Of a stretch of 64,000 nt of DNA, positions 602-16,092 are shown one piece after another. The DNA lies in contig QCGV01000001.1 in assembly GCA_003278145.1 (NCBI GenBank), forward strand, positions 139,616 to 203,615, in the 5' to 3' direction. Source of the DNA: OCS116 cluster bacterium AG-390-A19. GTDB taxonomy: Bacteria; Pseudomonadota; Alphaproteobacteria; MED-G09. The notes under the pieces are model-generated. The model saw nothing but the letters and a program-made list of their open reading frames with translations. It did not search any database and was not told where the DNA came from. Within the stretch, counting starts at the first letter, position 1; the number at the start of each line of letters is the position of its first letter. A program made the position numbers and the translations under genes.

Positions 602-1879
602 TTATGCTTTATCAAATTCAATATTTAGGCTATCCAGTCCTCTAAGTAAAACATTTGGACTATAGTTAAAATCATTTTTTTCAGTAAATCTCATATTTTT
701 TAATCTATCTAAAATGATTGGGAAAGCTGTATACATTTCCTTTCTTGATAAATTCATTCCAAGGCAAACATGAATTCCTTGCCCAAATGCAACATGACGA
801 CGAGCATTTTTTCTTGTTACATCAAATTTATCAGGATTTTCAAATAAATCTTCGTCTCTGTTTCCTGAGCCGTAACGAAGGAGTAAAGCTGACCCTGCTG
901 GAATTGCAACACCACCTAATTCAGTATCCTCTGTAGCAATTCTCCACATATTATTCGTCGGTGTAAGCAATCTAAGAGATTCTTCAATCATGTTTGGTAT
1001 TAGGCTATGATCATTAACAACTAATTCCATTTGATCTGGGTTTTCTATTAGTAGCTTTATTGCCTCAGTAATTGAATGTGCGGTAGTAGCATTACCAGCA
1101 ACAAGAAGCTGCTGGATAATTGATAACTGTTCTGGAGTTTCCATTTTTCTTGTAACATCGTTTTCATCTTCAAATTCTAAAGTTGCAAGATCTGATAAAA
1201 TATCATCGGTAGGATTTTTTGCTTTTTCATCTAATCTCTCAGCAAAATATTGTTGAAACTTTACTAGCTTTTTTGCAATTTCAATATGTTCCTCTGGCGT
1301 GCTTGTTCCTGATAATTGATCAGTAAATGCCTGTGAAGATATTCTAAAAAATTCATAGTCATCTGTTGATGCACCTAGCGCTTCAGCAATAACCCTAATT
1401 GGTAAGGGTTGTGCTAATTGAGTTGCAACTTCACATTTTCCATCTTCGATGAATTGATCAATTATAAAATTAGTCTTTTCTTCAATTGCTGGCCCCATAT
1501 CGGAAACTCTTTTAGGAGTAAATGCTTTATCAACCAAACTTCTATATTTTGTATGTCTAGGTGGATCAGCAGTAAGCATTGTGTTAACAGCAGGATAACC
1601 ATCCTTTTCCATGATTTCTGCTGCTTCCTGAGGATAAACATCAGATCCTCCATCCCTTTGTAGTGCACCGAAATCATTAGAAAATACTTTTGCATTTCTT
1701 GCTGCTTCGCATATTAATTCATGTTTTGATACTTGAAAAATACCTGTATTTGGATCTTGATACACAGGAGCTTCATCTCTTAGTTTTTTATAAAAAGCAT
1801 GGGGACATTTCATAAGCTCTTGGTCAAAAATATTTATCTCTTCTAAATTATCTTCAATTGGTTTAATGGCTTCACTCAT
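602..1879 (-). CDS. Cytochrome P450 monooxygenase
   Basis: Heme-thiolate loop FGQGIHVCLG, EXXR motif (ESLR), I-helix AGNATT, length 425 aa. Confidence 0.92.
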   Translation of the reverse strand: MSEAIKPIEDNLEEINIFDQELMKCPHAFYKKLRDEAPVYQDPNTGIFQVSKHELICEAARNAKVFSNDFGALQRDGGSDVYPQEAAEIMEKDGYPAVNTMLTADPPRHTKYRSLVDKAFTPKRVSDMGPAIEEKTNFIIDQFIEDGKCEVATQLAQPLPIRVIAEALGASTDDYEFFRISSQAFTDQLSGTSTPEEHIEIAKKLVKFQQYFAERLDEKAKNPTDDILSDLATLEFEDENDVTRKMETPEQLSIIQQLLVAGNATTAHSITEAIKLLIENPDQMELVVNDHSLIPNMIEESLRLLTPTNNMWRIATEDTELGGVAIPAGSALLLRYGSGNRDEDLFENPDKFDVTRKNARRHVAFGQGIHVCLGMNLSRKEMYTAFPIILDRLKNMRFTEKNDFNYSPNVLLRGLDSLNIEFDKA

Positions 1880-2135: not shown

Positions 2136-4607
2136 ATGCGTTTTTTTAAGTATATGTTTATTGGTTTCATTTTTGTTGCAATTACATTAATAGCTGATAA
2201 CAGAGCTTTTGCTCAAGAGACAGGTGTTTCTTCAAGACAGATAGACGAAATAATTGTTACTTCAAGAAAAACTGAAGAAAATATTCAGGATGTTCCAATT
2301 GCTGTTTATGCAGTAGATGAGAAAGCTTTAGATGATTTTCGACCAACAACTATGAGAGACTTAGATAGTCTTGCACCTAATTTGCAAGTTGGTATGAATT
2401 CAGCTTCAGGTAATCAAGGTGCAATTTTTGTTCGTGGATGTGGTTATGCCGAAGTAGAAAAAACTCAAAATCCACCAGTAGGCTTAATTGTTGATGGATT
2501 ATTTTTAGGAACTAATACCGGTACTTTATTAGATGCTTTTGATTGGTCTAAGATACAGGTGAATTCAGGTCCTCAAGGTGTTGTTTATGGTAAAAATACT
2601 TCTTGTGGTAATATTGTTGTAGAAAGAAATAAGCCATCAAAAGATTTTGAATTTGACACTGAAGTGTCAATTGGTAACTATGAGGCATATGAATTAGGCG
2701 TCATATTAAATATTCCTATCAATGATAAAGTTTCTTCACGTTGGAACTTTAGAAAACTTGCTCACCAAGGTTATTATGACAATTTATATACTGAAAAAGA
2801 TTCAGGACAATTAGATATTGCTGCGGCAAGTGCTCGTTTTTTAATTGAAGCATCTGAAAATACTGAAATTTATATCATTACAGACTATTATTATGATAGA
2901 GGTGATACAGCACCAGTTTCCTATTCAGGAAATCCTTTTGGTGCAGGATGTGTTCCTAATTTTGGAGCTGGTTTAGGATTGGTTGGAGCAGCTGATAATG
3001 GATGTACTCCTGGTCTGGGAGCAGTAACTGCAACTGAGTTAAGTACAGCTGGTGCAGCAATTGGTATTACTCCTTTTGCTGGTTTTGCAGGGCTTGAGCC
3101 ATTTTTCTCTCAAACTGAGGCACTTCCTCCTCACGTTGTTAATCTTGATAACCCAGAACAATCAGATATGGATTTTCTAAGAGGCAGTATTGAAGTTGTT
3201 TCAGATACTTTGATCGGTGAAGTAACTATTGCTACTTCTTATTTACAGTTAGATGACAATGTTCTTCAAGATTTTGATGCAACTCCAGGTTTTGGTGGTG
3301 GCCAAGGAAATCCTGCTACATTAGGTGGACCTCTTCATACTGCAAGAAATCAACATTTTTCTCAGTTTTCTCAGGAAATTAGAGTTTCTAATGATATAAC
3401 TGACAAATTAAACTTAACTACTGGAATATTTTTATGGAAAGACTCTATAATGCTTCAGCAACATTCTGGTGGAGTTGTTCAAACTTCAGGTCAAGATACA
3501 GAGTCTGTAGCAATTTTTGCATTAGTTAAATATGATGTATCAGATGATTTATCTATTTCTGGTGGTTTTAGATATGTTGATGAATCAAAAGACTTTCATT
3601 CTCAATATAATACTATTGTAGGTCCAGGTACTTATGGAACTGTTGCTCCTCTTGACTCTCCAGTTGTACTACCTAGGTTTACGAGATCAGCATCTTGGGA
3701 TGATTACATGGGTGAAGCATCTGTCGATTGGCAAGTAACAGAGGATAGTCTTTTATACGCTAGATGGGCAAGGGGCTTTAGATCAGGGGGTTATTCTATT
3801 AGATATGCAGCATCGGATACTCTAACTGCCTCTAGAGTAGCAGATCTGAATGCTCAAGGATTTGCTCTGGTTCCTCAAGCACATGCTAGAGAAGGAAGTG
3901 ACTTTAGTGTATTTGATCCAGAACTTACTGAATTATTTGAAATAGGATCTAAAAACACATTTTTAGATGGTTCTTTGCAAGTGAATGGTGCTGTCTTTCA
4001 AACTACTACTGAAGGTTTCCAAGCTTCAAGTATTTTGTCAACAGCTGGTGCGTTTAGAGCAACTGATACTTACATTAATAATTATCAGGAAACAGAAATA
4101 TCTGGTGCAGAGGTTCAAATTGTTTGGTTACCTCCAGTAGACGGTCTAACTCTCAGATTAAATTATGGTATCTTGGATCCAAAGATCAATGATGCTGTAG
4201 TTGATTCTGGAAGATTGGGTGTTGGCGGCAGACCAACCCAAGCAGGAACAATGGTTGATCTAGTAAATTCTGGGGTCACTCCTCAATTAGCGAGAGTTCC
4301 AGAGACAAGTTTTGCATTAACAGCTTTGTATGAATATAAACTTAATAATGGTGCATCGCTTAACACAAATGTAACATACAGAGGTTTCGATGATCAGAAT
4401 TTAACTATTTCATCATTCCCAGATAGTGAAGATGGATATGAGCTTCTAGATGCAACTATAACTTATGATGCTGGTGATTATTCTATTGCACTTATTGGTA
4501 GAAATCTTACTGACGAGGAATATAGAACTCACTCATTAACATCTGTTAGATTCCAAGGTTGGGGTGATCCTGCAACTTACATGTTAGAATTACGAAATTC
4601 TTGGTAA
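2136..4607 (+). CDS. TonB-dependent outer-membrane receptor
   Basis: Signal peptide; plug-type N-terminus (DEIIVTSRKTEENIQDVP, VNSGPQGVVYGKNTSCG); 823 aa with beta-strand-like alternation; C-terminal aromatic residue (..LRNSW); GGGGAG Shine-Dalgarno 7 nt upstream of the ATG. Confidence 0.85.
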   Translation: MRFFKYMFIGFIFVAITLIADNRAFAQETGVSSRQIDEIIVTSRKTEENIQDVPIAVYAVDEKALDDFRPTTMRDLDSLAPNLQVGMNSASGNQGAIFVRGCGYAEVEKTQNPPVGLIVDGLFLGTNTGTLLDAFDWSKIQVNSGPQGVVYGKNTSCGNIVVERNKPSKDFEFDTEVSIGNYEAYELGVILNIPINDKVSSRWNFRKLAHQGYYDNLYTEKDSGQLDIAAASARFLIEASENTEIYIITDYYYDRGDTAPVSYSGNPFGAGCVPNFGAGLGLVGAADNGCTPGLGAVTATELSTAGAAIGITPFAGFAGLEPFFSQTEALPPHVVNLDNPEQSDMDFLRGSIEVVSDTLIGEVTIATSYLQLDDNVLQDFDATPGFGGGQGNPATLGGPLHTARNQHFSQFSQEIRVSNDITDKLNLTTGIFLWKDSIMLQQHSGGVVQTSGQDTESVAIFALVKYDVSDDLSISGGFRYVDESKDFHSQYNTIVGPGTYGTVAPLDSPVVLPRFTRSASWDDYMGEASVDWQVTEDSLLYARWARGFRSGGYSIRYAASDTLTASRVADLNAQGFALVPQAHAREGSDFSVFDPELTELFEIGSKNTFLDGSLQVNGAVFQTTTEGFQASSILSTAGAFRATDTYINNYQETEISGAEVQIVWLPPVDGLTLRLNYGILDPKINDAVVDSGRLGVGGRPTQAGTMVDLVNSGVTPQLARVPETSFALTALYEYKLNNGASLNTNVTYRGFDDQNLTISSFPDSEDGYELLDATITYDAGDYSIALIGRNLTDEEYRTHSLTSVRFQGWGDPATYMLELRNSW

Positions 4608-4630
4608 TATAGTAAAAATAAAGAAATTAA

Positions 4631-4664
4631 AGGATGAAGCACTGGTGTTTCATCCTTTTTTTTT
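4631..4664 (+). terminator. Rho-independent terminator after the first TonB-dependent receptor
   Basis: AGGATGAAGCA / TGTTTCATCCT stem (11 bp including one G-U), 4-nt loop, followed by a run of 9 T. Confidence 0.85.
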
Positions 4665-4693
4665 GTAATATCAAAACTTAAATTCGGAAATCT

Positions 4694-5449
4694 ATGGAAA
4701 ATCTCAAAAATAAAACTTTTATTATTACTGGCGGAGGAAGGGGTATTGGAGCCGAAGCCTCTAAATTAATTGCTTCAAATGGAGCAAATGTGATTTTAAC
4801 ATGCAGAACTGAAAGTCAGGGTTTTTCCGTTGAAAAAGAAATATTAAATAATGGTGATAATGCTAAATTTATTCCTCAAGATGTAACTATAGAAAGTGAT
4901 TGGCGAAAAGTTATTGATGAAGGTCTCGAATTGTATGGTCGTATTGATGGAGTTGTAAATAACGCTGGAACATTCTCATGGAAATCTATGAATGAGTCTA
5001 AATTAGATGATTTTAAAGAAGTTATTGATGTTAATTTAGCTGGATCTTTTCTTGGTTTAAAATATGGGACAGAAGCTATTAGAAAACACGGAGAGGGTGG
5101 TTCTATTGTTATGATTTCTTCAGTTCTTGGTAAAGTAGGAGCACCAAATACTACTGCAGTTTGTGCTGCTAAAGGTGGTGTAAGACTTTTAGCAAAAGCA
5201 GGTGCTTGCGAATTAGGACCAGAAAAAATAAGAGTTAATTCAATTCATCCAGGCTTAACTGACACTGAGGTTGGAAAAGTTTTTACTTCTGGTTTAAGTG
5301 ATAAGCAATTTATCCAATCAAATATTCCTATGGGTAGAATGGCTAGATCAGAAGAAATCGCAAAAACAATTTTATTTTTAGTTTCCGAAGAGTCTTTTTT
5401 TATGACTGGTGCTGAATTGACTATTGATGGAGGTTTTACCGCAGGGTAG
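4694..5449 (+). CDS. Short-chain dehydrogenase/reductase (SDR) paralogue lacking the catalytic tyrosine
   Basis: TGGGRGIG cofactor motif, NNAG, ISSV serine. The expected Y-x3-K reads V156-C-A-A-K160 (codon GTT at 5159-5161). Confidence 0.85.
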   Translation: MENLKNKTFIITGGGRGIGAEASKLIASNGANVILTCRTESQGFSVEKEILNNGDNAKFIPQDVTIESDWRKVIDEGLELYGRIDGVVNNAGTFSWKSMNESKLDDFKEVIDVNLAGSFLGLKYGTEAIRKHGEGGSIVMISSVLGKVGAPNTTAVCAAKGGVRLLAKAGACELGPEKIRVNSIHPGLTDTEVGKVFTSGLSDKQFIQSNIPMGRMARSEEIAKTILFLVSEESFFMTGAELTIDGGFTAG

Positions 5450-5454
5450 TAATT

Positions 5455-6222
5455 ATGGGTAAATTAGATCAAAAAGTTGCAATTGTTACTGGTGCTACAT
5501 CAGGTATTGGAAGAGAAACTGCTATCTTGTTATCTCGAGAGGGAGCCTCAGTTGTATTCACTGGCAGAAATAAAGATGCTGCTGAAGAGACATCAGACCT
5601 TATTTCTAAAGAAGGAGGTAAATGTTTATTTATTCAGCATGATGTTGCCGATGAGAATAATTGGATTGAAGTTATAAAAACTACAAAGGATCATTTTGGT
5701 TCATTGGATATTTTAGTTAACAATGCCGGACAATTTTTTCTAAAACCAATAATGGAAACCTCTTTAGAGGATTTTAATCAAATTTGTTCAGTTAATATTG
5801 ATGGTGCATGGTTGGGTATGAAACACTGTCTACCTGAAATGAATGATGGTGGCGCTATTGTCAATGTGTCCTCCTTAATGGGCCAAATGGGTCTTCCTGA
5901 TGCCTCAGGTTATTGCGCCTCAAAAGGTGCGGTTACATCTATGACTAAGGCTGCTGCATTAGAGGTTGCAGATAGAAATATTAAAATAAATGCTTTACAC
6001 CCAGGCGTCATTTGGACACCTATGGTTGGAGCAGGTTCTGAGGGTGATAATGATCTAAAAAGTTTTTTTCAATTAGAAACCCCGCTTAGAGAAGTAGGGT
6101 TACCAAAAAATATGGCAGATGCTATATTATTTTTATGCACTACTGAGTACCTTACAGGATCAGATTTAAATGTAGATGGCGGAAGATTTGCTGATGGCGC
6201 TATGGGCAGTAACGCTAGTTAA
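5455..6222 (+). CDS. Classical SDR oxidoreductase
   Basis: TGATSGIG, NNAG, SSLMG...YCASKGAV (intact Y-x3-K), PG motif. Lies 5 nt after the preceding SDR. Confidence 0.88.
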   Translation: MGKLDQKVAIVTGATSGIGRETAILLSREGASVVFTGRNKDAAEETSDLISKEGGKCLFIQHDVADENNWIEVIKTTKDHFGSLDILVNNAGQFFLKPIMETSLEDFNQICSVNIDGAWLGMKHCLPEMNDGGAIVNVSSLMGQMGLPDASGYCASKGAVTSMTKAAALEVADRNIKINALHPGVIWTPMVGAGSEGDNDLKSFFQLETPLREVGLPKNMADAILFLCTTEYLTGSDLNVDGGRFADGAMGSNAS

Positions 6223-6230
6223 CAATTCTA

Positions 6231-7490
6231 ATGACAACATCTATTAAAACTTCACCGAAAGAGAGAAAATTAGGATTCAGGGTTCTGTTTCTTGCTATGT
6301 TTGCAATTGGAACTGGTCAGACTCTTTTTATTGCAGTTTTACCTCCTTATGCAAGAGGACTAGGTTTATCAGAAGTTCAAGTTGGATTTATATTTTCATT
6401 ATCAGCACTCGGTTGGATGATAATGAGCCCATTTTGGGGAAGAAAAAGTGATTTCATAGGTAGAAAATCTATAATAATTCTTGGTCTTTTAGTATACGCA
6501 TTTACAACAATTTTAATGGGGCTTGAATTTAGATTGAATGAGTTAGGGTATATTAATTTAAGTACTTTGTTTGGCTTATTAATCTTTACTAGAGGTTGTT
6601 ATGGTTTTTTAGGTTCAGGTGCCCACTCAGCATCGATGGCTTATGTAGCTGATCGAACTACTGAAAAAGAAAGATCAGGTATTATGGCTGTAATGGGTTC
6701 CGCTTTCGCAATTAGTGGCATTGTTGGCCCTGGTTTAGCCTCTGCTGCAGTTATGTTGGGTCCATTGGTACCTTATTTTCTTTTTGGTTTTATTACAGCA
6801 CTTATTGCTTTATTGATTTTTATTTTCTTACCTGAAAAAACTAAACCTATTCGTCCTGCTAAAGTCCATGAAGCAAGACTTACACCATATGATACACGAG
6901 TAATTACTTTTGCTTTGATGGGTTTATGTATTAGCCAAACATCAGCTGTTGTTATGCAAATTTTATCATTATATCTGCAAGATAAGTTTGGTTACAGTAA
7001 TACAGAAGCTTCAGTATATACTGGCTCAATGTTAATTTTTACTGGAGTTGCTACATTAATTGTTCAGTTAGGTATTATAAGAAATATTTCACCAACTCCA
7101 TCAATTTTACTAAGGCTTGGCTCAATAGCGACAATTATATCCCTAATATTGATTGTTGCCTCTAAAGACTTATATTTAATGGGTTTTGCAATGGCTATAT
7201 ATGGAGTTGGTGGAGCATTGATGGGACCAGGCTTATTTACAGGTCTATCACTAGCAGTTGGTAAAGATGAACAAGGTGCAGCAGCAGGTATTTTGGTAAG
7301 CTCTTATGCAGCGGGTTTTCTTATAAATCCTTTAACAGGTATGCAATTATTTATCATAAATGTTAACTTTCCTTATTATCTTGGGGTTGCATTAATGTTC
7401 ATATGCTTGTTGATTGCTTTTTTTGATAAAAGGCTAAATAGAGTTGTAGAATATGAGGACAATGTTGACTTTCAAAGTCATAATGGTTGA
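6231..7490 (+). CDS. Major facilitator superfamily transporter
   Basis: About 12 hydrophobic segments and an MFS loop motif (GRKSDFIGRK) between the predicted TM2 and TM3. Lies 8 nt after the SDR pair. Confidence 0.85.
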   Translation: MTTSIKTSPKERKLGFRVLFLAMFAIGTGQTLFIAVLPPYARGLGLSEVQVGFIFSLSALGWMIMSPFWGRKSDFIGRKSIIILGLLVYAFTTILMGLEFRLNELGYINLSTLFGLLIFTRGCYGFLGSGAHSASMAYVADRTTEKERSGIMAVMGSAFAISGIVGPGLASAAVMLGPLVPYFLFGFITALIALLIFIFLPEKTKPIRPAKVHEARLTPYDTRVITFALMGLCISQTSAVVMQILSLYLQDKFGYSNTEASVYTGSMLIFTGVATLIVQLGIIRNISPTPSILLRLGSIATIISLILIVASKDLYLMGFAMAIYGVGGALMGPGLFTGLSLAVGKDEQGAAAGILVSSYAAGFLINPLTGMQLFIINVNFPYYLGVALMFICLLIAFFDKRLNRVVEYEDNVDFQSHNG

Positions 7491-9587
7491 TTAAAAAGTT
7501 CCTTCAAGTTCGATTTTAAAAAAGCTATGCTCGTTTATATCAAAATTTTCTTGAATAAGTAGATCGTTATTTGATTTAAATCCATTATAAATTAATTTTC
7601 TTCCAAAGCCAAAATTTGTATCTAAAATATTTTTTGCAATAAAGTTAAAATTTAATCTTGGATTAATCTTGGCAGTAAAACCAAAACTTAAAGTAGGATC
7701 TTGTGCAAATCTTCCCCATAAATAAGGGTCATAAATATTAAATTGTGATTGGGATCTATAAGTTAAGCCCCAACTATATTTTCCTCCTGGGATATCTTGC
7801 CTTAAACCAATCATAGTTTGCCATCTTTTATACCATGAAAAATCTCTTTTAATATTTGTTACAGGATCGATCACTTCTGTACTTTGAAGATAGCCCATAA
7901 ACCTAAAAACACCTCCTTCAAGAAGTTTATTTATTCTAATACTCCCATCAATTCTTGCTTGAGTTTTTTCTCCTGAGCCTAAATTTCCTATCCCAGCATA
8001 ACCATCAATAGGAAGCCTATCTACTGGACCATCTATTTTACTAGCTAAACCTTTTATGGTTACAACCCCTCCATCATTAGGTAATCTCCATTCATGTTCT
8101 AATTTGACTTCCCAAGATGTTTCTGGTTTTAAGTCTGGATTTCCTGCACGAATAGTTTCTTCAAATTGGTCATAGCTTGAGATAAAGTCATCAAAATTAA
8201 TTTGACCAACATTTCTCTCAATATTAAATCTTATCTGCCGATTATTTTTATAGTCCCATTTAATATCTATTCTAGGTTTCCAATATTTAAACTCTCTTGA
8301 TAAATTTATATCTCCGGATTGGCTGATTTCTGACCATTCATAATTTAGGGCTAATTCTGTTCTAATTTTTTTTGATAAAGGAATGTTATATGATAAAAAT
8401 CCTTCATATCTATCTTCTTCTACTAATCCAGATGTATTAATTAGACCGGCGTTAGTAGCTACGGAGTCTTTATCGAAGTATATAAGATTAAAAGTCCTAT
8501 TTAATTTATTATAAGCGCTTTCAATACCGTATTCGAGTGAATTACTTTTGCCTATTAGTTTGTTAAAACTTAATCTAATAATTCTTTCATTTTCTTTTCT
8601 GATATTTGTTTCATCACTATTGTTGTAAGAGTCTATAGTGTCATCTAAGAACGAAGTATCATTTTGATCCTCATTCTCTTCTGTTAGCACAACTCTTAAT
8701 TTAAATGAGTTGTTTTTATTAATTTGATATTCCCAGTCACCTCCAAATTCCCATCCATCATTATCTTCTCTTCTATCCCAGTTAATTTTTTTGTAAAACG
8801 TCTCGTTATTGATATCTGAAGGTGAAAAATATTCTTGAATTTGTGGGGCATTTTCTTTGCCATTAAACCACACCAAAGTATTTATTCTTATAGTATTTTT
8901 ATCATTAATTTTTGAATTTAGATCTATATTTACCCTGTTACTCGATTGGTACTCAATTGTTTCTCTTAATCTATAATACAGAAGTGACTGTTCTTGATCG
9001 ACAGTAAATTCATTATATTTTCTGCTATTTAGATCACCAATTCTTTCAAATCCTATAACAATATCGGTTTTTTTTATTTTTGTTGCCCAAGATCCTATTC
9101 CTCGCCAGTTACTACTGCCAGAGGTTAGATATCCTAAAGCAGCACTCCAGGTTCCCGAGCCTTTTGATAAATTACCATCCACTATTATATTAACAATTAT
9201 TCCATCTGAACGAACATCAAGGCCTGCTTCCGAGCCTCTAATAACTTCTATTTTAATTAATGAGTCAGCATTTATTCTTTCTAATGTTTTTATAATGTTA
9301 TTACTTTTGGAGGATTGTCTTTCACCATTAATTAAAATTTGAGCCCCAGAAGAACCAAAACCTCTTTTTTTATTATTACTTCCTGGTTCGTAATTCTCTG
9401 AATAATTACCAGAGCTTAAATTTTCAACACCTGGTATTCTTTTAATGGCATCAGCGGCATTAGTTATATTGTATTGTCTAAAGTAAGCTTGATCATAGAT
9501 AATTTTATTACTTTCTTGAGAGAAAGCCTCAAGAGGAAATAAAATTAAAATAAATAAATAAAAAAAAAATTTTTTCCAAAAAATCAT
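7491..9587 (-). CDS. TonB-dependent receptor-like outer-membrane beta-barrel protein
   Basis: Signal peptide; plug-like segment (AADAIKRIPGV, IEVIRGSEAGLDV); long amphipathic beta-strand region; C-terminal Phe (..LEGTF). Lies 8 nt downstream of the dioxygenase gene on the same strand. Confidence 0.7.
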   Translation of the reverse strand: MIFWKKFFFYLFILILFPLEAFSQESNKIIYDQAYFRQYNITNAADAIKRIPGVENLSSGNYSENYEPGSNNKKRGFGSSGAQILINGERQSSKSNNIIKTLERINADSLIKIEVIRGSEAGLDVRSDGIIVNIIVDGNLSKGSGTWSAALGYLTSGSSNWRGIGSWATKIKKTDIVIGFERIGDLNSRKYNEFTVDQEQSLLYYRLRETIEYQSSNRVNIDLNSKINDKNTIRINTLVWFNGKENAPQIQEYFSPSDINNETFYKKINWDRREDNDGWEFGGDWEYQINKNNSFKLRVVLTEENEDQNDTSFLDDTIDSYNNSDETNIRKENERIIRLSFNKLIGKSNSLEYGIESAYNKLNRTFNLIYFDKDSVATNAGLINTSGLVEEDRYEGFLSYNIPLSKKIRTELALNYEWSEISQSGDINLSREFKYWKPRIDIKWDYKNNRQIRFNIERNVGQINFDDFISSYDQFEETIRAGNPDLKPETSWEVKLEHEWRLPNDGGVVTIKGLASKIDGPVDRLPIDGYAGIGNLGSGEKTQARIDGSIRINKLLEGGVFRFMGYLQSTEVIDPVTNIKRDFSWYKRWQTMIGLRQDIPGGKYSWGLTYRSQSQFNIYDPYLWGRFAQDPTLSFGFTAKINPRLNFNFIAKNILDTNFGFGRKLIYNGFKSNNDLLIQENFDINEHSFFKIELEGTF

Positions 9588-9595
9588 TAGTTTAT

Positions 9596-11005
9596 TTATG
9601 CTCTATTTTCAAACCAGCCATGGAAACCATAAGGCACTCTATGAGGGAGTTGAGCCGTAGCTACTGGACCATCATCAACATGTTGAGCATCTAAGAAGAT
9701 TAAATTTGATCTATTTTCAGCACCGTTATATTCCGTAGCTATTAACCATCCTTCTCCATCTTTACTGTCCTTTGATTTAGGTGCAAAAACAGGCTCACCT
9801 ACTGCTCCACCTTCAGCAGTGGTATAAGATTTTCTTTCACCAGTATTATAATCATAATGAATAATTGAATTAAGAGACATACCCTTAGGATGGTTCCCAA
9901 TACTTCCAGCATAGTAACCATGAGCGTATTTACGTAGTGCAAACCTTTCATCAAACCTTGGGAATTCCCCTGTTATATTATCTAATGAAGTTTTAATTAA
10001 TTTAGAATTCTTTATATCAATTTCCCATCTTGCATGTTTAGCTTCTGCTTCTGATTGTTTTGGCATAGTACCATCTGCATATGGGAATAAAGGTGGAAGT
10101 CCAAATTCCATACAATCACATATTATAGAACCATTTTCTTCATAAGAATTCATATAATGAAATACAAAGGTTGGATCTGCTTCAATCCATTTTGCATCTT
10201 TAGCAGTACCATTTCTAGGCATTACACAAATGTGGCTTCCTTTTTCAGGTTCCCATGCAAAAGCTGGACCCCCATTTATTACTCGCTCAAAATCACCCGT
10301 TAAAGGAAAAACAGGTATTATTATATAATTTTCAGTGGCAAAAAAATCATGAACCATTGATGGAAATGGTGCCTTAATTAACTCAGATTTTGAAATCTTT
10401 CCATCCTTTGATACAGATGTATACCTTATTGTATCACTAAAAAAACCATCAGCCATATATCCAAAAAATAATAATTCTCCTGTAACTGGATCTACTTTAG
10501 GATGGGCTGTAACAGGACCTTGAAGTTTACTATCAAATGTATGGGATCCAATTGACTTAAGAGTAAATGGATCAAACTCAAAAGGTGCATGTGCCTCTTC
10601 AAGCGCTAAAAGCTTTCCAGCATGAGAAACTATCGAAGTATTTGCTAACCCATCGGTTTCTAAACCCTGAACTGAAGGATCAGTATCTGTAGGGTCCATT
10701 CCACTTGGAAATAGTGCCTCACCGGCTTCGTGTTCTTTAAGCCACTTTACAGTTCTCATCCAACGGTTAATGTATGAAACTTTTCCATTATTGATATGAA
10801 AGGCATGAACCATTCCGTCGCCACCAAACCAATGAGATTTACCTCCTCTAGGAGAAAATTTTGGATCAGGACCATTTCTGTAATAGCTACCATTTATTTC
10901 TAAAGGAACATTACCCTCTATTATTAAATCATCAACGTTACTTTCCATTCTTAGTGGTGCAAAATTTCCTATGAGATGATCTTCTTTTGGATATGGTTTA
11001 GCCAT
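9596..11005 (-). CDS. Carotenoid-cleavage/lignostilbene dioxygenase family (RPE65/CCD) enzyme
   Basis: All four family iron-ligand histidine contexts are present: TAHPKVDP, MVHDFFATENY, VFHYMNSYEE, YGFHGWFE. Length 469 aa. Confidence 0.88.
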   Translation of the reverse strand: MAKPYPKEDHLIGNFAPLRMESNVDDLIIEGNVPLEINGSYYRNGPDPKFSPRGGKSHWFGGDGMVHAFHINNGKVSYINRWMRTVKWLKEHEAGEALFPSGMDPTDTDPSVQGLETDGLANTSIVSHAGKLLALEEAHAPFEFDPFTLKSIGSHTFDSKLQGPVTAHPKVDPVTGELLFFGYMADGFFSDTIRYTSVSKDGKISKSELIKAPFPSMVHDFFATENYIIIPVFPLTGDFERVINGGPAFAWEPEKGSHICVMPRNGTAKDAKWIEADPTFVFHYMNSYEENGSIICDCMEFGLPPLFPYADGTMPKQSEAEAKHARWEIDIKNSKLIKTSLDNITGEFPRFDERFALRKYAHGYYAGSIGNHPKGMSLNSIIHYDYNTGERKSYTTAEGGAVGEPVFAPKSKDSKDGEGWLIATEYNGAENRSNLIFLDAQHVDDGPVATAQLPHRVPYGFHGWFENRA

Positions 11006-11142
11006 TTTTAATTCCCCTTTATTTATTTCTTCTTCATGTATTATAAATTTTTATTTTTTATATGTAAAAGGGATTGTTGCTTTAGATTTACTGTGCTGTA
11101 ATAAAGATGTTTATAAGGCATTTATGAGAAGGAGATAGTTAA

Positions 11143-12573
11143 ATGAAAGAATGTATGCAATTTTATATTAACGGTGAATGGGTAGATCCAGTTGACCCAA
11201 AGTCTTTAGATGTTATTAATCCCGCAACAGAAGAAGTAATTGGTAAAATAGCTATGGGTAACAGCCAAGATGTTAATAAAGCTGTTGCTGCTGCGAAAGA
11301 AGCATTTGAAAGTTTTTCTCAAACAACAAAAGAAGAGCGTTTAGCTCTTATGGGAAAAATTCTTGAAGTTTATCAATCACGTTATGATGAAATTGCAGAA
11401 ACAATTTCTTCTGAAATGGGTGCACCTTTGTGGCTTTCAAAGGCGGCTCAAGCTGCTACTGGAGCAGGGCATTTTGGTACATTTATGGAAGTTTTAAAAA
11501 ATTATAACTTTGATGAAGATAAGGGAACAACCAGACTCAGAAAAGAGCCAGTTGGTGTCTGTGGTTTGATTACTCCTTGGAACTGGCCAATCAATCAGAT
11601 TGCTTGTAAGGTTGCACCAGCATTAGCTGCAGGATGTACTATGGTTTTAAAGCCATCAGAAGTTTCTCCGTTAAATGCAGTAATATTTGCTGAAGTTCTT
11701 CATGAAGCAGGAGTTCCTGCTGGAGTATTTAACCTTGTAAATGGTGATGGTTTAAGTGTCGGTGAAGCAATGTCCTCTCATCCCGATATTGATATGATGT
11801 CGTTTACGGGTTCAACTAGAGCAGGGGTTGCTGTAGCTAAAGCTTCTGCAGACACTGTAAAAAGAGTTTCTCAAGAATTAGGTGGTAAATCAGCTAACAT
11901 TATTCTTGATGATGCTGATTTCAATCAATCAGTTGCCGGCGGTGTTACAGGTTGCTTTATGAATTCTGGTCAATCATGTAATGCACCTACTCGAATGCTT
12001 GTTCCTGCTGATAGGCAGGATGAGGCTGTTGCTATTGCTAAAGCGACTGCAGAGGCAACTGTAGTAGGCGATCCCAAAGAAGTTGCAGCTGGAGGAATTG
12101 GTCCAGTTGTAAGTGAAGTTCAATTTAATAAAATTCAAGGATTAATTGAAAAAGGTATTGAGGAAGGCGCTACACTTGTTGCTGGTGGCCCAGGAAAGCC
12201 TGAAGGTTTTAATGCTGGTTATTATGTTAAACCAACTATTTTCTCAGATGTATCGAATGATATGACTATTGCCAGAGAAGAAATTTTTGGTCCTGTTTTA
12301 TCAATTCTTCCATACAAAGATGAAGATGATGCTATATCAATTGCCAATGATACAGAGTATGGATTATCAGGCTATGTATCTGGAAGTCAGGAAAAAGCTC
12401 AAAAGTTTGCTGAGAAATTTCGTTCAGGTAATGTTCATGTTAATGGCGCAGGTCCAGATTTTAATGCACCGTTTGGCGGCTATAAGAAGTCGGGTAATGG
12501 TAGAGAGTGGGGTGATCTTGGTTTTGAAGAATTCTTAGAAATCAAAGCGATTCTTGGCTATAACGCTGCTTAA
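11143..12573 (+). CDS. NAD(P)-dependent aldehyde dehydrogenase
   Basis: Catalytic Glu motif ELGGKS, catalytic Cys context NSGQSCNAPTR, PWNWP, EEIFGPV. AGGAG Shine-Dalgarno upstream. Confidence 0.93.
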   Translation: MKECMQFYINGEWVDPVDPKSLDVINPATEEVIGKIAMGNSQDVNKAVAAAKEAFESFSQTTKEERLALMGKILEVYQSRYDEIAETISSEMGAPLWLSKAAQAATGAGHFGTFMEVLKNYNFDEDKGTTRLRKEPVGVCGLITPWNWPINQIACKVAPALAAGCTMVLKPSEVSPLNAVIFAEVLHEAGVPAGVFNLVNGDGLSVGEAMSSHPDIDMMSFTGSTRAGVAVAKASADTVKRVSQELGGKSANIILDDADFNQSVAGGVTGCFMNSGQSCNAPTRMLVPADRQDEAVAIAKATAEATVVGDPKEVAAGGIGPVVSEVQFNKIQGLIEKGIEEGATLVAGGPGKPEGFNAGYYVKPTIFSDVSNDMTIAREEIFGPVLSILPYKDEDDAISIANDTEYGLSGYVSGSQEKAQKFAEKFRSGNVHVNGAGPDFNAPFGGYKKSGNGREWGDLGFEEFLEIKAILGYNAA

Positions 12574-12595
12574 ACTAAACTAAATTAAATTTAAG

Positions 12596-12623
12596 AAGGC
12601 TGCTCTTTTGTGCAGCCTTTTTT
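12596..12623. terminator. Bidirectional rho-independent terminator between convergent ALDH and PCu(A)C genes
   Basis: AAGGCTGC / GCAGCCTT 8-bp stem, 8-nt loop, then a T-run that reaches the stop codon of the minus-strand gene. Confidence 0.75.
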
Positions 12624-13807: not shown

Positions 13808-15010
13808 ATGGATTTAAACGCTGGACCTGAATATATTGATTTTAGAGAAAATGTTCTCTCTTTTCTTGAAAAAAATAAACATATGGCTGGTAAAGCAAGA
13901 ACCCCTGTTAGGCCAAGTAGCGAGGAGCTTAAATGGCAAAAAAAATTAATCGATAATGGTTATGCTGCTAGAACTATTCCAAAAAAGTATGGCGGGTATG
14001 GAGCTCAGTCAGACGTTTTAAAATCACGAATAATTGCTGAGGAATTTAGTAAAGCTAATATCCCTATGGGTATGGCTAATCAAGGTATTTCTATGTTAGT
14101 GCCAACTCTTTTAGAATTAGGATCAGATGATCAAAAAAATGAGTGGATAAGCAAAACTATTTCAGGAGAGGTGATTTGGTGTCAGGGTTACTCTGAGCCT
14201 GGTTCAGGGTCTGATCTTGCTTCCTTACAAACAAAAGCAATTGTCGATGGTGATGATTTTATCATAAATGGTCAGAAAATCTGGACGTCAGGCGCTCAAA
14301 TTGCTGACATGATGTTTTGTTTAGTAAGAACTGAGCCTGAGGCTGCAAAACATAAAGGAATATCTTATATTTTAATTGATATGAAAACTCCTGGAATTGA
14401 AGTTCGACCTTTAATGACAATGACAGGACATGCAGAATTTAATGAAGTTTTTTTTACCGATGTAAGGGTTCCTAAAAACCAAATTGTTGGAAAAAGAGGA
14501 GAAGGTTGGTATGTGGCAAACGCAACTTTAACTCATGAAAGAGGGATGCTTGGTGATCCTAATCAGTCAGCGACACGTTTGAATGAGATTATTGATTTAA
14601 TGCATCAAGAAACCATTAACGGTGAGAAATTAATTAATAACCCTATCCATTTGGATAGATTAATGAAGCTTCAGGCAAGGGTGCTAAGTATGTCATTTAA
14701 TAGTTTGAGATTGTTGACGGCATCCCATAAGAAATTAGATGCCAAAATGGCAAAATTAATTGTTAAGTTAAATGGATGTCAGCTTAATCATGATCTTGCT
14801 GGTTTTGCGATTGACCTTCTTGGAGAGCTCGGCACAATTTATGGTAAAAGTAATCATGATCACGGCTCAGGAAAATGGCAATGGAAGTATATGTTTGACC
14901 TAGGATTAATTATTGGGGGCGGAACAGCTCAAATACAAAAAAATATAATAAGTGAAATAGGTCTTGGAATGCCTCGTGAACCAAAACCAATGGTTAATGG
15001 AAAAAAATAA
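13808..15010 (+). CDS. Acyl-CoA dehydrogenase, FAD-binding (alpha-like) subunit
   Basis: CQGYSEPGSGSDLASL FAD/substrate motif, INGQKIWTSGA, C-terminal GGGTAQIQKNIISE. Confidence 0.88.
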   Translation: MDLNAGPEYIDFRENVLSFLEKNKHMAGKARTPVRPSSEELKWQKKLIDNGYAARTIPKKYGGYGAQSDVLKSRIIAEEFSKANIPMGMANQGISMLVPTLLELGSDDQKNEWISKTISGEVIWCQGYSEPGSGSDLASLQTKAIVDGDDFIINGQKIWTSGAQIADMMFCLVRTEPEAAKHKGISYILIDMKTPGIEVRPLMTMTGHAEFNEVFFTDVRVPKNQIVGKRGEGWYVANATLTHERGMLGDPNQSATRLNEIIDLMHQETINGEKLINNPIHLDRLMKLQARVLSMSFNSLRLLTASHKKLDAKMAKLIVKLNGCQLNHDLAGFAIDLLGELGTIYGKSNHDHGSGKWQWKYMFDLGLIIGGGTAQIQKNIISEIGLGMPREPKPMVNGKK

Positions 15011-16092
15011 TGGAATTTGCATTATCAGAAGAACAAGAAATTCTAATGGACAGTGTTAAAAAGATGCTAGATGAAAATATTAGCATCGATAATCTACGTG
15101 AACACTCCAAAGGAGATGATTCATTAAGAAAGTCCTTACGAAAATTGATTATTGATATGGGTTTACCAGGTTTAATGATCCCAGAAGAGTATGGGGGATC
15201 TGGTTTAGGAGTTTTGGAAGCAAGTTTGGTAGCTGAACAATTAGGATCTTATGCAGCACCATCACCATGGATTGGAAGCTCTATAATGGCACCAACTGCA
15301 ATTTTATTTGATAAGGAAAATAATTTGGCTGAAAAATGGCTTCCACTGATTGCATCTGGTGAAATTACCGCTTGTGTGTCCCTTAGTGAAGTTATTGGAA
15401 AGAGAAGTGATTTAGGTTTAGTTTTAGATGGCACAAATGTTTCAGGGGTAAGTATTTTTGGAATAGATGGCGAGCTAAATCCAACAATAATAATAACAGC
15501 AGTAGATGATAATTTAATACTTGTTGAGACAGATAATAACGGTGTTGAAATCAATGAGATACCAACAATAGATTCAACCCGTCCAGTTGTTGAAATAATT
15601 TTTGATTCTTCAAAATGCCAAATAATAACTGGTGGTAAAGATGCCATTCAAAAAACAATTGATGTAGGAAGAATTGGTTTAGCAGCAGATTTGCTTGGTG
15701 CTAGCCAGAACATGATTAATAAAGCTGTTGAGTACTCGCTTGAGCGAAAACAGTTTGAAAGAGTTATAGGATCTTTTCAGGCGGTAAAACATATGTGTGC
15801 TGAAATGGCAGCTGACTTAGAGCCCTGTAGATCTTTAATGTGGTATGCGGCTTATTCACAAGATTTTATTAAAGATGAAGCAAGTCTTTTAGCATGTCAT
15901 GCAAAAGCTCATCTATCTGAGATTGGTCAAGATATTGCAAGAACTTCAACGCAAGTTTTTGGAGGAATGGGCTTTACCGATCTTTTAGGTATGCACTATT
16001 GGTTTAAAAGAGTAGGTTTATCAAGACAAATTCTTGGCGGTCCAGAAAGGGTTAGAAAAGAAGCAGCATTAATTCAGGGCTTTGAATTATAA
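15010..16092 (+). CDS. Acyl-CoA dehydrogenase family protein with a degenerate FAD motif (beta-like subunit)
   Basis: ACAD C-terminal helices (ERKQFERVIGSFQAVKH, QVFGGMGFT). The position of the TEPxxGSD motif reads CVSLSEVIGKRSDL. The start overlaps the upstream stop (TAATG). Confidence 0.8.
   Translation: MEFALSEEQEILMDSVKKMLDENISIDNLREHSKGDDSLRKSLRKLIIDMGLPGLMIPEEYGGSGLGVLEASLVAEQLGSYAAPSPWIGSSIMAPTAILFDKENNLAEKWLPLIASGEITACVSLSEVIGKRSDLGLVLDGTNVSGVSIFGIDGELNPTIIITAVDDNLILVETDNNGVEINEIPTIDSTRPVVEIIFDSSKCQIITGGKDAIQKTIDVGRIGLAADLLGASQNMINKAVEYSLERKQFERVIGSFQAVKHMCAEMAADLEPCRSLMWYAAYSQDFIKDEASLLACHAKAHLSEIGQDIARTSTQVFGGMGFTDLLGMHYWFKRVGLSRQILGGPERVRKEAALIQGFEL

What the first reader, a model, noticed from the sequence alone, without database searches (positions are those of the whole stretch)
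7491..12573. Cleavage dioxygenase co-transcribed with an outer-membrane receptor and divergent from an aldehyde dehydrogenase
**Seen:** the CCD-type gene (9596-11005) is followed after 8 nt by the 698-aa receptor-like barrel (7491-9587) on the same strand. The ALDH gene diverges from the dioxygenase across a 137-bp AT-rich spacer (11006-11142).

**Established:** the product of a CCD reaction is an aldehyde, and a dedicated ALDH is the usual next step. Examples are lignostilbene to vanillin to vanillate, and apocarotenal to apocarotenoic acid.

**Inference:** direct operonic coupling of a CCD enzyme to a TonB-dependent-type barrel suggests the substrate is taken up from outside, for example algal carotenoid or apocarotenoid debris or stilbenoids. 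A retinal-producing role (retinal as the aldehyde) is an alternative, in which case the ALDH would remove or convert it.
Basis: partly seen in the sequence, partly recalled or inferred. Interest (0 to 1): 0.6.

Follow-up and report, generated by a model that had tools for sequence, protein, structure and literature searches.

The report
Alkene-cleaving oxygenase with outer-membrane importer
A small marine PS1-clade bacterium pairs a double-bond-cleaving oxygenase with an outer-membrane import channel in one probable operon, next to an aldehyde-oxidising enzyme, most likely to import and break down pigment-like compounds; the parts are ordinary, the pairing was not found in the literature I could search, and the substrate is inferred.

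Summary
A full-length RPE65/CCD-family oxygenase (9596-11005, minus strand) is followed after 8 nt by a TonB-dependent transporter (7491-9587). An ALDH gene (11143-12573) diverges across a 137-bp spacer with 23% GC.

The host is a PS1-clade alphaproteobacterium (1.37-Mb MAG). All 18 family genomes that carry this oxygenase show the same ALDH<->CCD->receptor order wherever the contig allows. Gaps are 3-20 nt, and a conserved TTTACA-17-TATAAT-like promoter lies upstream.

Oxygenase and receptor are present together or missing together across 25 genomes. They sit on a strain-variable island of about 26 kb that also carries a P450, two more receptors, SDRs, an MFS transporter and acyl-CoA dehydrogenases.

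The enzyme is not a lignostilbene dioxygenase. The phenol-binding Tyr101/Lys134 pair is Gly/Glu, and it falls in an uncharacterised clade beside SAR86 enzymes.

The retinal idea is not supported. The family lacks blh and crtB, but rhodopsin presence does not track this locus.

Best reading (0.55): uptake, cleavage and oxidation of an exogenous non-phenolic alkene, probably carotenoid-derived.

The scan earlier noted other oxygenase-receptor clusters in SAR86 DNA.

The parts
9596..11005 (-). CCD/RPE65-family non-haem iron oxygenase (469 aa, no signal peptide). It has the four iron-ligand His (H168, H219, H283, H462) and the second-shell Glu (E137, E347, E404). Gly102 and Glu136 stand where LSDs have Tyr101 and Lys134.
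9588..9595 (-). 8-nt gap between the oxygenase stop and the receptor start. The gap is 3-20 nt in orthologous loci, too short for a terminator.
7491..9587 (-). TonB-dependent transporter (698 aa). It has a signal peptide ending ...EAFS/QE, a candidate TonB box KIIYD (a predicted strand), a plug, a barrel and a C-terminal Phe. It is a lineage-specific receptor with no close paralogue in the genome.
11040..11068 (-). Sigma-70-type promoter-like site TTTACA-17-TATAAT, 34 nt upstream of the oxygenase ATG. A regex search finds it at the same place in 11 of 13 family loci. The other two carry TTTACA-17-TATATT by eye.
11006..11142 (.). 137-bp divergent spacer (23% GC). It also holds a conserved TTATTACAGCACAG element nearer the ALDH gene, possibly an operator or the ALDH promoter region (not tested).
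11143..12573 (+). NAD(P)-dependent aldehyde dehydrogenase (476 aa) with catalytic Glu245 and Cys279. It has no close paralogue in this genome: the only other tblastn hit above 60 bits shares 31% identity.
12593..12622 (+). Terminator-like hairpin (11 pairs plus a T run) after the ALDH gene. It reads on both strands, between ALDH and PCuAC.
2136..7490 (+). Convergent neighbouring operon on the same island: second TonB-dependent receptor, two SDRs and an MFS transporter (gaps 86, 5 and 8 nt). The MFS stop abuts the receptor stop with 0 nt between them. The MFS is the candidate inner-membrane step.
602..1879 (-). Cytochrome P450 on the same island. Its best PDB relatives are CYP125, CYP142 and CYP150.
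13808..16092 (+). Overlapping pair of acyl-CoA dehydrogenase genes on the same island. ACAD1 has no orthologue in four of the genomes that lack the oxygenase; ACAD2 was not tested.

Best explanation
The oxygenase and the TonB-dependent transporter form a two-gene operon driven by a conserved promoter in the divergent spacer, and the ALDH is read the other way from the same spacer. Together with the convergent receptor-SDR-SDR-MFS operon and the P450, they form an uptake-and-oxidation module on a strain-variable island of about 26 kb in PS1-clade bacteria. Proposed mechanism: the receptor, energised by TonB, brings a scarce, poorly soluble unsaturated compound across the outer membrane, and the MFS or diffusion takes it into the cytoplasm. 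The cytoplasmic four-His iron oxygenase then cuts a C=C bond with O2 to give aldehyde products, and the ALDH oxidises these to acids for further breakdown, possibly through the island's acyl-CoA dehydrogenases. The substrate is not a 4-hydroxystilbene. It is most likely a carotenoid or apocarotenoid-type conjugated polyene from phytoplankton. Shown here: gene identities, catalytic residues, synteny, co-occurrence, the conserved promoter motif, the absence of the LSD residues and the phylogenetic position. Inferred: co-transcription, direction of transport, substrate class and the role of the ALDH product.
For: Anatomy and families. The order ALDH<->CCD->receptor holds in all 14 related loci and all 18 family genomes with the gene, where the contig allows, with 3-20 nt gaps. 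The promoter is conserved and there is no terminator-like site between the two genes. Across 25 family genomes, oxygenase and receptor occur together in 17, and neither was found in 7; one more has the oxygenase cut at a contig end. Four of the genomes without them also lack the ALDH and ACAD1 orthologues. TonB is present and there are 23 receptors. The LSD phenol pair is replaced by Gly/Glu (PMC6382310), and the enzyme's clade is separate from the LSDs and sister to SAR86. In the SAR86 sister clade the oxygenase is followed at 6-7 nt, or overlapped, by a CurA/PTGR1-type enone/enal reductase. That fits conjugated carbonyl products of polyene cleavage. Receptor-oxygenase adjacency recurs independently: in one gammaproteobacterial MAG together with SDRs, an ACAD and ThuA, and in 5 of 29 other alphaproteobacterial CCD loci, all with non-LSD enzymes. 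The genome is rich in enzymes for hydrophobic unsaturated compounds, with 8 P450 and about 9 CurA-like hits by tblastn. A receptor gene inside a catabolic cluster has an experimentally shown precedent in DdvT (PMC6874591).
Against: There are no transcript or activity data. The receptor's ligand cannot be read from its sequence: there is no PDB hit by sequence, the fold matches are generic, and homologues occur only in PS1. By overall similarity the enzyme is closer to LSD models than to the apocarotenoid model (404 vs 305 bits). Most gammaproteobacterial orthologues stand in housekeeping contexts with no receptor or ALDH. In two Pseudomonadales genomes the orthologue sits beside aromatic meta-cleavage genes. 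Co-occurrence is at the level of the whole island, so it cannot separate true coupling from co-residence. Synteny breaks fall at contig ends of MAGs, so 'missing' means not found in those assemblies. No CoA ligase is seen on the island.
Confidence: 0.55

Rival explanations
1. The module takes up and cleaves an aromatic alkene (a stilbenoid, or a lignin- or phenylpropanoid-derived compound).
For: The best NCBIfam and PDB matches are LSD-type enzymes. In two Pseudomonadales genomes the orthologue lies next to LigB, FAA-hydrolase, ALDH and CoA-ligase genes. CurA-type reductases also act on aryl enones (one search gives the family name; their activity on aryl enones is from my own knowledge). A TonB-dependent receptor for a lignin-derived dimer is known (PMC6874591).
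Against: Tyr101 and Lys134, which hold the 4-hydroxyl in NOV1, are Gly and Glu here and in all 119 homologues. Scores are far below the LSD equivalog cut-offs (404 vs 800). The clade is separate from the LSDs. In the sample of 29 alphaproteobacterial loci, none of the four true LSD-type loci had an adjacent receptor. From general knowledge, an open-ocean oligotroph sees little lignin.
Confidence: 0.12
2. The operon scavenges exogenous carotenoid or apocarotenoid to make retinal for the cell's proteorhodopsin.
For: The genome has a rhodopsin. No blh, crtB or lycopene cyclase was found. Neither blh nor crtB was found in any of 25 family genomes, although the blh search found the gene in two other alphaproteobacteria. 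SAR86 poses the same puzzle (PMC3358033; PMC7734400). CCD-family Diox1 homologues have been proposed as an alternative route to retinal (PMC5864233).
Against: Rhodopsin and the locus are not associated. Of 18 genomes with the oxygenase, 7 have a rhodopsin and 11 do not. Of 7 without it, 5 have one. Among genomes at least 90% complete the counts are 2, 4, 1 and 1. All three genomes of one genus have the locus and no rhodopsin. A divergently paired ALDH would destroy retinal. A second oxygenase of apocarotenoid type is the better candidate, and it too is independent of rhodopsin.
Confidence: 0.06
3. The adjacency is structural only. The receptor imports something unrelated (a metal chelate or cofactor), and the oxygenase acts on an endogenous or diffusible compound.
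For: Receptors are very common in this genome (23). The island also carries metal-related genes: PCuAC, HupE/UreJ and DUF3604. Most orthologues elsewhere have no receptor beside them. Fold matches are all to metal or siderophore transporters, though that is what the PDB mostly holds.
Against: A gap of 3-20 nt is kept in three genera while the receptor itself has diverged to 59% identity. Only one conserved promoter is seen. Receptor-oxygenase adjacency recurs independently in other lineages.
Confidence: 0.2

Closest known systems
Lignostilbene-alpha,beta-dioxygenases and stilbene oxygenases (LsdA 6ojw, NOV1 5j53, Pseudomonas brassicacearum 5v2d)
   Same: Same superfamily and length. These are the best sequence matches in the PDB (E about 1e-93 to 1e-90). 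The four His ligands, the Glu shell and Phe59 are conserved. An ALDH is the next enzyme in the known pathways.
   Different: Tyr101 is Gly and Lys134 is Glu. The NCBIfam score is half the equivalog cut-off. The clade is separate in the tree. The host is an oceanic oligotroph, and the gene is operonic with a TonB-dependent transporter.
Apocarotenoid and carotenoid oxygenases (Synechocystis ACO/Diox1 2biw; the NF052295 8'-apo-carotenoid 13,14-dioxygenase family)
   Same: Same superfamily and iron site. They also lack the phenol-binding pair. Their cleavage products are aldehydes.
   Different: Only distant similarity (172 bits to ACO; 305 vs a cut-off of 675 for NF052295). The genome's second oxygenase is nearer to this group than the one studied here.
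DdvT and the ddv genes of Sphingobium sp. SYK-6 (PMC6874591)
   Same: A TonB-dependent receptor encoded with catabolic genes that imports their organic substrate across the outer membrane.
   Different: Different substrate class (a biphenyl lignin dimer), different enzymes and a regulator present. The receptor here is unrelated beyond the fold.
Orthologous oxygenases of SAR86 and other marine Gammaproteobacteria (50-57% identity)
   Same: Same uncharacterised clade with the same LALEEAH motif. In the tree the PS1 enzymes sit next to SAR86 (support 92/88).
   Different: In SAR86 the partner gene is a CurA-type enone reductase, not a receptor or an ALDH. Most other orthologues stand alone.

Membership tests
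Carotenoid cleavage oxygenase superfamily (Pfam RPE65, PF03055) | Full-length match above the gathering score | tested here: met
   440 bits against a cut-off of 27, covering profile positions 1-467 of 469
Carotenoid cleavage oxygenase superfamily (Pfam RPE65, PF03055) | Four His iron ligands and second-shell Glu residues | tested here: met
   H168, H219, H283 and H462 align with LsdA H167/218/282/472. E137, E347 and E404 lie in the LEEAH, GEFPRF and GEPVF motifs, aligned to LsdA.
Carotenoid cleavage oxygenase superfamily (Pfam RPE65, PF03055) | O2-dependent C=C cleavage activity | not testable with these tools
   This needs an enzyme assay.
Lignostilbene / stilbene dioxygenases (LSD, NOV1 type) | Tyr101 and Lys134/135 binding the substrate's 4-hydroxyl | tested here: not met
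   Gly102 and Glu136 in the query. At the Lys134 position, Glu occurs in all 119 homologues. At the Tyr101 position there is a gap or Gly in the family alignment, and mostly Phe in a second alignment of alphaproteobacterial CCDs. The role of the pair is described in PMC6382310.
Lignostilbene / stilbene dioxygenases (LSD, NOV1 type) | NCBIfam equivalog score | tested here: not met
   NF053778 scores 404 bits against 800; NF053780 scores 333 against 650
Lignostilbene / stilbene dioxygenases (LSD, NOV1 type) | Groups with characterised LSDs in a tree | tested here: not met
   LsdA and 5v2d form their own clade with 100/100 support. The query clade is apart and sister to SAR86. Only two LSD sequences were available, and only as aligned parts.
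Apocarotenoid oxygenase (NF052295 / ACO type) | Equivalog score or close similarity | tested here: not met
   305 bits against a cut-off of 675; ACO 2biw scores 172 bits
TonB-dependent transporter | N-terminal plug plus 22-strand barrel | tested here: met
   Both Pfam domains score above their cut-offs. The model shows a plug and a barrel and matches FecA, PhuR and Fiu at E 1e-22 to 1e-20 with TM about 0.55. Model confidence is only moderate.
TonB-dependent transporter | Signal peptide, TonB box and C-terminal aromatic residue | tested here: inconclusive
   A signal-like N-terminus and a terminal Phe are seen. KIIYD (residues 28-32) is conserved and predicted as a strand. Its role as a TonB box was not tested.
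TonB-dependent transporter | TonB partner in the genome | tested here: met
   One TonB_C gene at C8:38192-38425, 66.9 bits
Aldehyde dehydrogenase superfamily | Full-length Pfam match with catalytic Cys and Glu | tested here: met
   518 bits; E245 in ELGGKS and C279 in GQSCNA. No NCBIfam equivalog cut-off is reached, so the substrate is unassigned.
Operon (oxygenase plus receptor) | One transcript | not testable with these tools
Indirect support: an 8-nt gap, no terminator-like site, and a conserved upstream promoter.

The most novel reading that the evidence does not exclude
The oxygenase-receptor operon is part of a pigment-scavenging route by which rhodopsin-bearing marine bacteria that lack both carotenoid synthesis and blh (the PS1 clade here, SAR86 elsewhere) obtain retinal or a retinal-like chromophore from algal carotenoids imported through a TonB-dependent transporter.
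Probability: 0.06. Interest if true: 0.85.

Novelty: new variant of a known kind. Interest (0 to 1): 0.45.

Why it matters
Carotenoids are among the most abundant lipids made in the sunlit ocean, yet which bacteria take them up, and how, is largely unknown. A conserved operon joining a cleavage oxygenase to its own outer-membrane transporter in an abundant oligotroph gives two concrete genes to test for pigment uptake and turnover. No TonB-dependent transporter for a carotenoid-type compound turned up in the literature I could search. The work also defines an uncharacterised oxygenase clade, widespread in marine Gammaproteobacteria and SAR86, that resembles lignostilbene dioxygenases but cannot use their phenol-activation mechanism. 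Finally, it shows that the PS1 family shares SAR86's unsolved problem of carrying rhodopsin without a known route to retinal.

Tried and rejected
1. LSD membership: rejected, because the Tyr/Lys pair is missing, scores are below cut-off and the clade is separate.

2. Retinal salvage by this locus: tested against rhodopsin distribution in 25 genomes, and no association was found.

3. I recalled that the ALDH's PDB relative SAV2122 (3ty7) was the staphyloxanthin aldehyde dehydrogenase, which would have pointed to carotenoid aldehydes. The literature shows that enzyme is an ALDH3 (6K0Z), so the lead was dropped.

4. Guilt by association in the 66 gammaproteobacterial orthologue loci: neighbours are mostly housekeeping and varied. 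Only the SAR86 CurA-type partner, one SZUA-307 cluster and two hpa-like contexts were informative.

5. Receptor specificity: there was no PDB hit by sequence, the fold hits were generic, and homologues occur only within PS1.

7. The promoter scan alone has no discriminating power (20 sites found against 26.7 expected). Only the conservation of one site across genera gives it weight.

8. Literature searches for a receptor-oxygenase cluster found nothing relevant.

9. I did not model the oxygenase structure, because coordinates are not returned and the pocket could not be inspected.
Full report
**Observation.**
- The 469-aa protein is a full-length RPE65/CCD-family oxygenase (440 bits).
- The 698-aa protein has Plug and TonB-dependent barrel domains above their Pfam cut-offs. 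It has a signal-like N-terminus and a terminal Phe. A moderate-confidence model best matches FecA, PhuR and Fiu.
- The 476-aa protein is an aldehyde dehydrogenase (518 bits) with catalytic Glu245 and Cys279.
- The oxygenase stop and the receptor start are 8 nt apart. The divergent spacer is 137 bp with 23% GC.

**Organism.** Related contigs are titled Rhodobiaceae bacterium, uncultured PS1 clade bacterium and Hyphomicrobiales bacterium. The host is therefore a PS1-clade alphaproteobacterium. The assembly is 1.37 Mb in 29 contigs and 83% complete. It has one TonB_C gene and 23 Plug-domain receptors.

**Is the oxygenase-receptor pair a unit?**
- In 14 related loci, and in all 18 family genomes that carry this oxygenase, the order is ALDH<->oxygenase->receptor wherever the contig allows.
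- The oxygenase-receptor gap is 3-20 nt.
- The best promoter-like site in the region is TTTACA-17-TATAAT at 11068-11040 on the minus strand. A regex search finds it at the same position in 11 of 13 family loci; the other two carry TTTACA-17-TATATT by eye.
- No terminator-like site lies between the two genes. One follows the ALDH gene.
- Across 25 family genomes in three genera, oxygenase and receptor occur together in 17. One more has the oxygenase cut at a contig end. Neither was found in 7, two of which are at least 93% complete.
- This supports co-transcription and joint inheritance.

**The island.**
- Four of the genomes without the pair also lack orthologues of the ALDH and of the first acyl-CoA dehydrogenase.
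- DNA comparison places the syntenic borders at about 4.65 kb before the window start and at window 21296.
- The variable block is therefore about 26 kb. It holds a third receptor, DUF3604, a PPIase, the P450, the receptor-SDR-SDR-MFS operon, the oxygenase-receptor pair, ALDH, PCuAC-GPx, the ACAD pair, the DUF3604-PPIase-HupE trio and purU.
- In two of the comparison MAGs the synteny breaks coincide with contig ends. 'Missing' therefore means not found in those assemblies.
- Co-occurrence is at island level and cannot by itself separate coupling from co-residence.

**What kind of oxygenase?**
- The best PDB and NCBIfam matches are lignostilbene dioxygenases, but far below the equivalog cut-offs (404 vs 800 bits).
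- In NOV1, Tyr101 and Lys134/135 hydrogen-bond the substrate's 4'-hydroxyl (PMC6382310). The aligned positions here are Gly102 and Glu136.
- At the Lys134 position, Glu occurs in all 119 aligned homologues and in the genome's second oxygenase. At the Tyr101 position these sequences have a gap or Gly.
- The four His ligands, the Glu shell and Phe59 are conserved.
- In a maximum-likelihood tree the PS1 enzymes are monophyletic (100/100). They lie inside a clade of marine gammaproteobacterial enzymes, next to SAR86 (92/88), and apart from LsdA and 5v2d.
- The shared low G+C of PS1 and SAR86 could inflate that sister relation.
- This is an uncharacterised clade, and in PS1 it probably arrived by horizontal transfer.

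**Context elsewhere.**
- The gammaproteobacterial orthologues (50-57% identity) mostly stand in varied housekeeping contexts without a receptor or ALDH.
- SAR86 and relatives: the oxygenase is followed at 6-7 nt, or overlapped, by a CurA/PTGR1-type NADPH enone/enal reductase (NF058644, 395 bits against a cut-off of 440). This fits conjugated carbonyl products.
- MAG SZUA-307: it has SDR, LuxR, receptor, oxygenase, ACAD-like, SDR, enone reductase, ThuA and SDR genes, all on one strand.
- Two Pseudomonadales genomes: homoprotocatechuate-type genes (LigB, FAA hydrolase, ALDH) lie beside SDR-oxygenase. This is a hint toward aromatics that I cannot dismiss.
- A sample of 29 other alphaproteobacterial CCD loci: five have an adjacent receptor. 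Three of these are co-directional with the receptor first, with gaps of about 27, 170 and 224 nt. All five carry non-LSD enzymes, and one also has a CurA-like gene upstream. I did not test this frequency formally against chance.

**The retinal alternative.**
- The genome has a rhodopsin but no blh, crtB or lycopene cyclase.
- In 25 family genomes rhodopsin occurs in 12, blh in 0 and crtB in 0. The blh search did find the gene in two other alphaproteobacteria.
- The same puzzle is described for SAR86 (PMC3358033; PMC7734400).
- Rhodopsin does not follow this locus, however. With the oxygenase, 7 genomes have a rhodopsin and 11 do not. Without it, 5 do and 2 do not. All three genomes of one genus have the locus and no rhodopsin.
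- A divergent ALDH would also oxidise retinal.
- A second oxygenase (C11:13231-14547) is closer to the 8'-apo-carotenoid 13,14-dioxygenase model. It is nearly universal in the family and likewise independent of rhodopsin.

**Other parts.**
- The ALDH's closest solved relatives (6x9l, 3i44, 3ty7) are uncharacterised.
- My recollection that 3ty7 was the staphyloxanthin enzyme was wrong.
- The P450 is nearest to CYP125, CYP142 and CYP150.
- The genome holds 8 P450 and about 9 CurA-like hits by tblastn. That is a large set for 1.37 Mb and suggests a specialisation in hydrophobic unsaturated compounds.

**Mechanism (best reading, 0.55).**
- The TonB-energised receptor imports a scarce unsaturated compound. 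The MFS or diffusion carries it inward.
- The cytoplasmic oxygenase, which has no signal peptide, cleaves a C=C bond. The ALDH oxidises the aldehyde, and further oxidation follows.
- The substrate is most likely a carotenoid-derived polyene. A non-phenolic aromatic alkene remains possible.

**Comparison and novelty.**
- The parts are known families. A receptor gene inside a catabolic cluster has a tested precedent in DdvT (PMC6874591).
- A cleavage oxygenase operonic with its own receptor was not found in the literature I could search.
- Earlier notes of this scan describe other oxygenase-receptor clusters in SAR86. These are leads, not evidence.
- I class the finding as a new variant of a known kind.

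Noticed in passing
G000:C10:1202-1840 (L003) and family genomes: Rhodopsin occurs in 12 of 25 PS1-family genomes, but blh (PF15461) and phytoene synthase (PF00494) were found in none. The family shares the retinal-source puzzle described for SAR86.
   Followed up: partly
G000:C11:13231-14547 (-), L131:7229-8722: A second CCD-family gene, about 39% identical to the one studied. Its best NCBIfam model is the 8'-apo-carotenoid 13,14-dioxygenase (367 bits). It is nearly universal in the family, has no adjacent receptor or ALDH, and has a P450 about 4 kb away.
   Followed up: partly
L087, L091, L094, L097, L104, L105, L116 (SAR86 and related MAGs): The orthologous oxygenase is followed at 6-7 nt, or overlapped, by a CurA/PTGR1-type NADPH enone/enal reductase. 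This looks like a conserved two-gene unit in the sister clade.
   Followed up: partly
L086:4935-16898: The gammaproteobacterial MAG SZUA-307 has SDR, LuxR-type regulator, TonB-dependent receptor, oxygenase, ACAD-like, SDR, enone reductase, ThuA and SDR genes, all on one strand.
   Followed up: partly
L061:2655-11404 (also L060): In two Pseudomonadales genomes the orthologue lies next to CoA ligase, FAA-hydrolase, LigB extradiol dioxygenase and ALDH genes, a homoprotocatechuate-like set.
   Followed up: no
L161, L162, L163, L164: Other Alphaproteobacteria have a TonB-dependent receptor directly beside a non-LSD CCD gene. In L161 two CCD genes flank the receptor. In L163 a CurA-like gene precedes the CCD gene.
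   Followed up: partly
window 7487-7494: The MFS gene (+) and the receptor gene (-) end back to back with 0 nt between their stop codons. That leaves no room for a terminator between the two convergent operons.
   Followed up: no
window about 11085-11105: A TTATTACAGCACAG element in the divergent spacer is conserved across PS1 genera, on the ALDH side of the oxygenase promoter. It may be an operator or the ALDH promoter. No regulator gene lies on the island.
   Followed up: no
whole genome G000: The genome holds 8 P450 and about 9 CurA-like enone-reductase hits by tblastn, plus 23 TonB-dependent receptors, in a 1.37-Mb assembly.
   Followed up: no
window -4650 to 21296 (G000:C1:134964-160911): A block of about 26 kb was not found in four related assemblies (G002, G003, G008, G014). 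Synteny resumes at the amidase gene (window 21297) in G002, at window 25203 in G003, and stops after an SDR gene upstream in G008. In G002 and G003 the breaks coincide with contig ends.
   Followed up: yes
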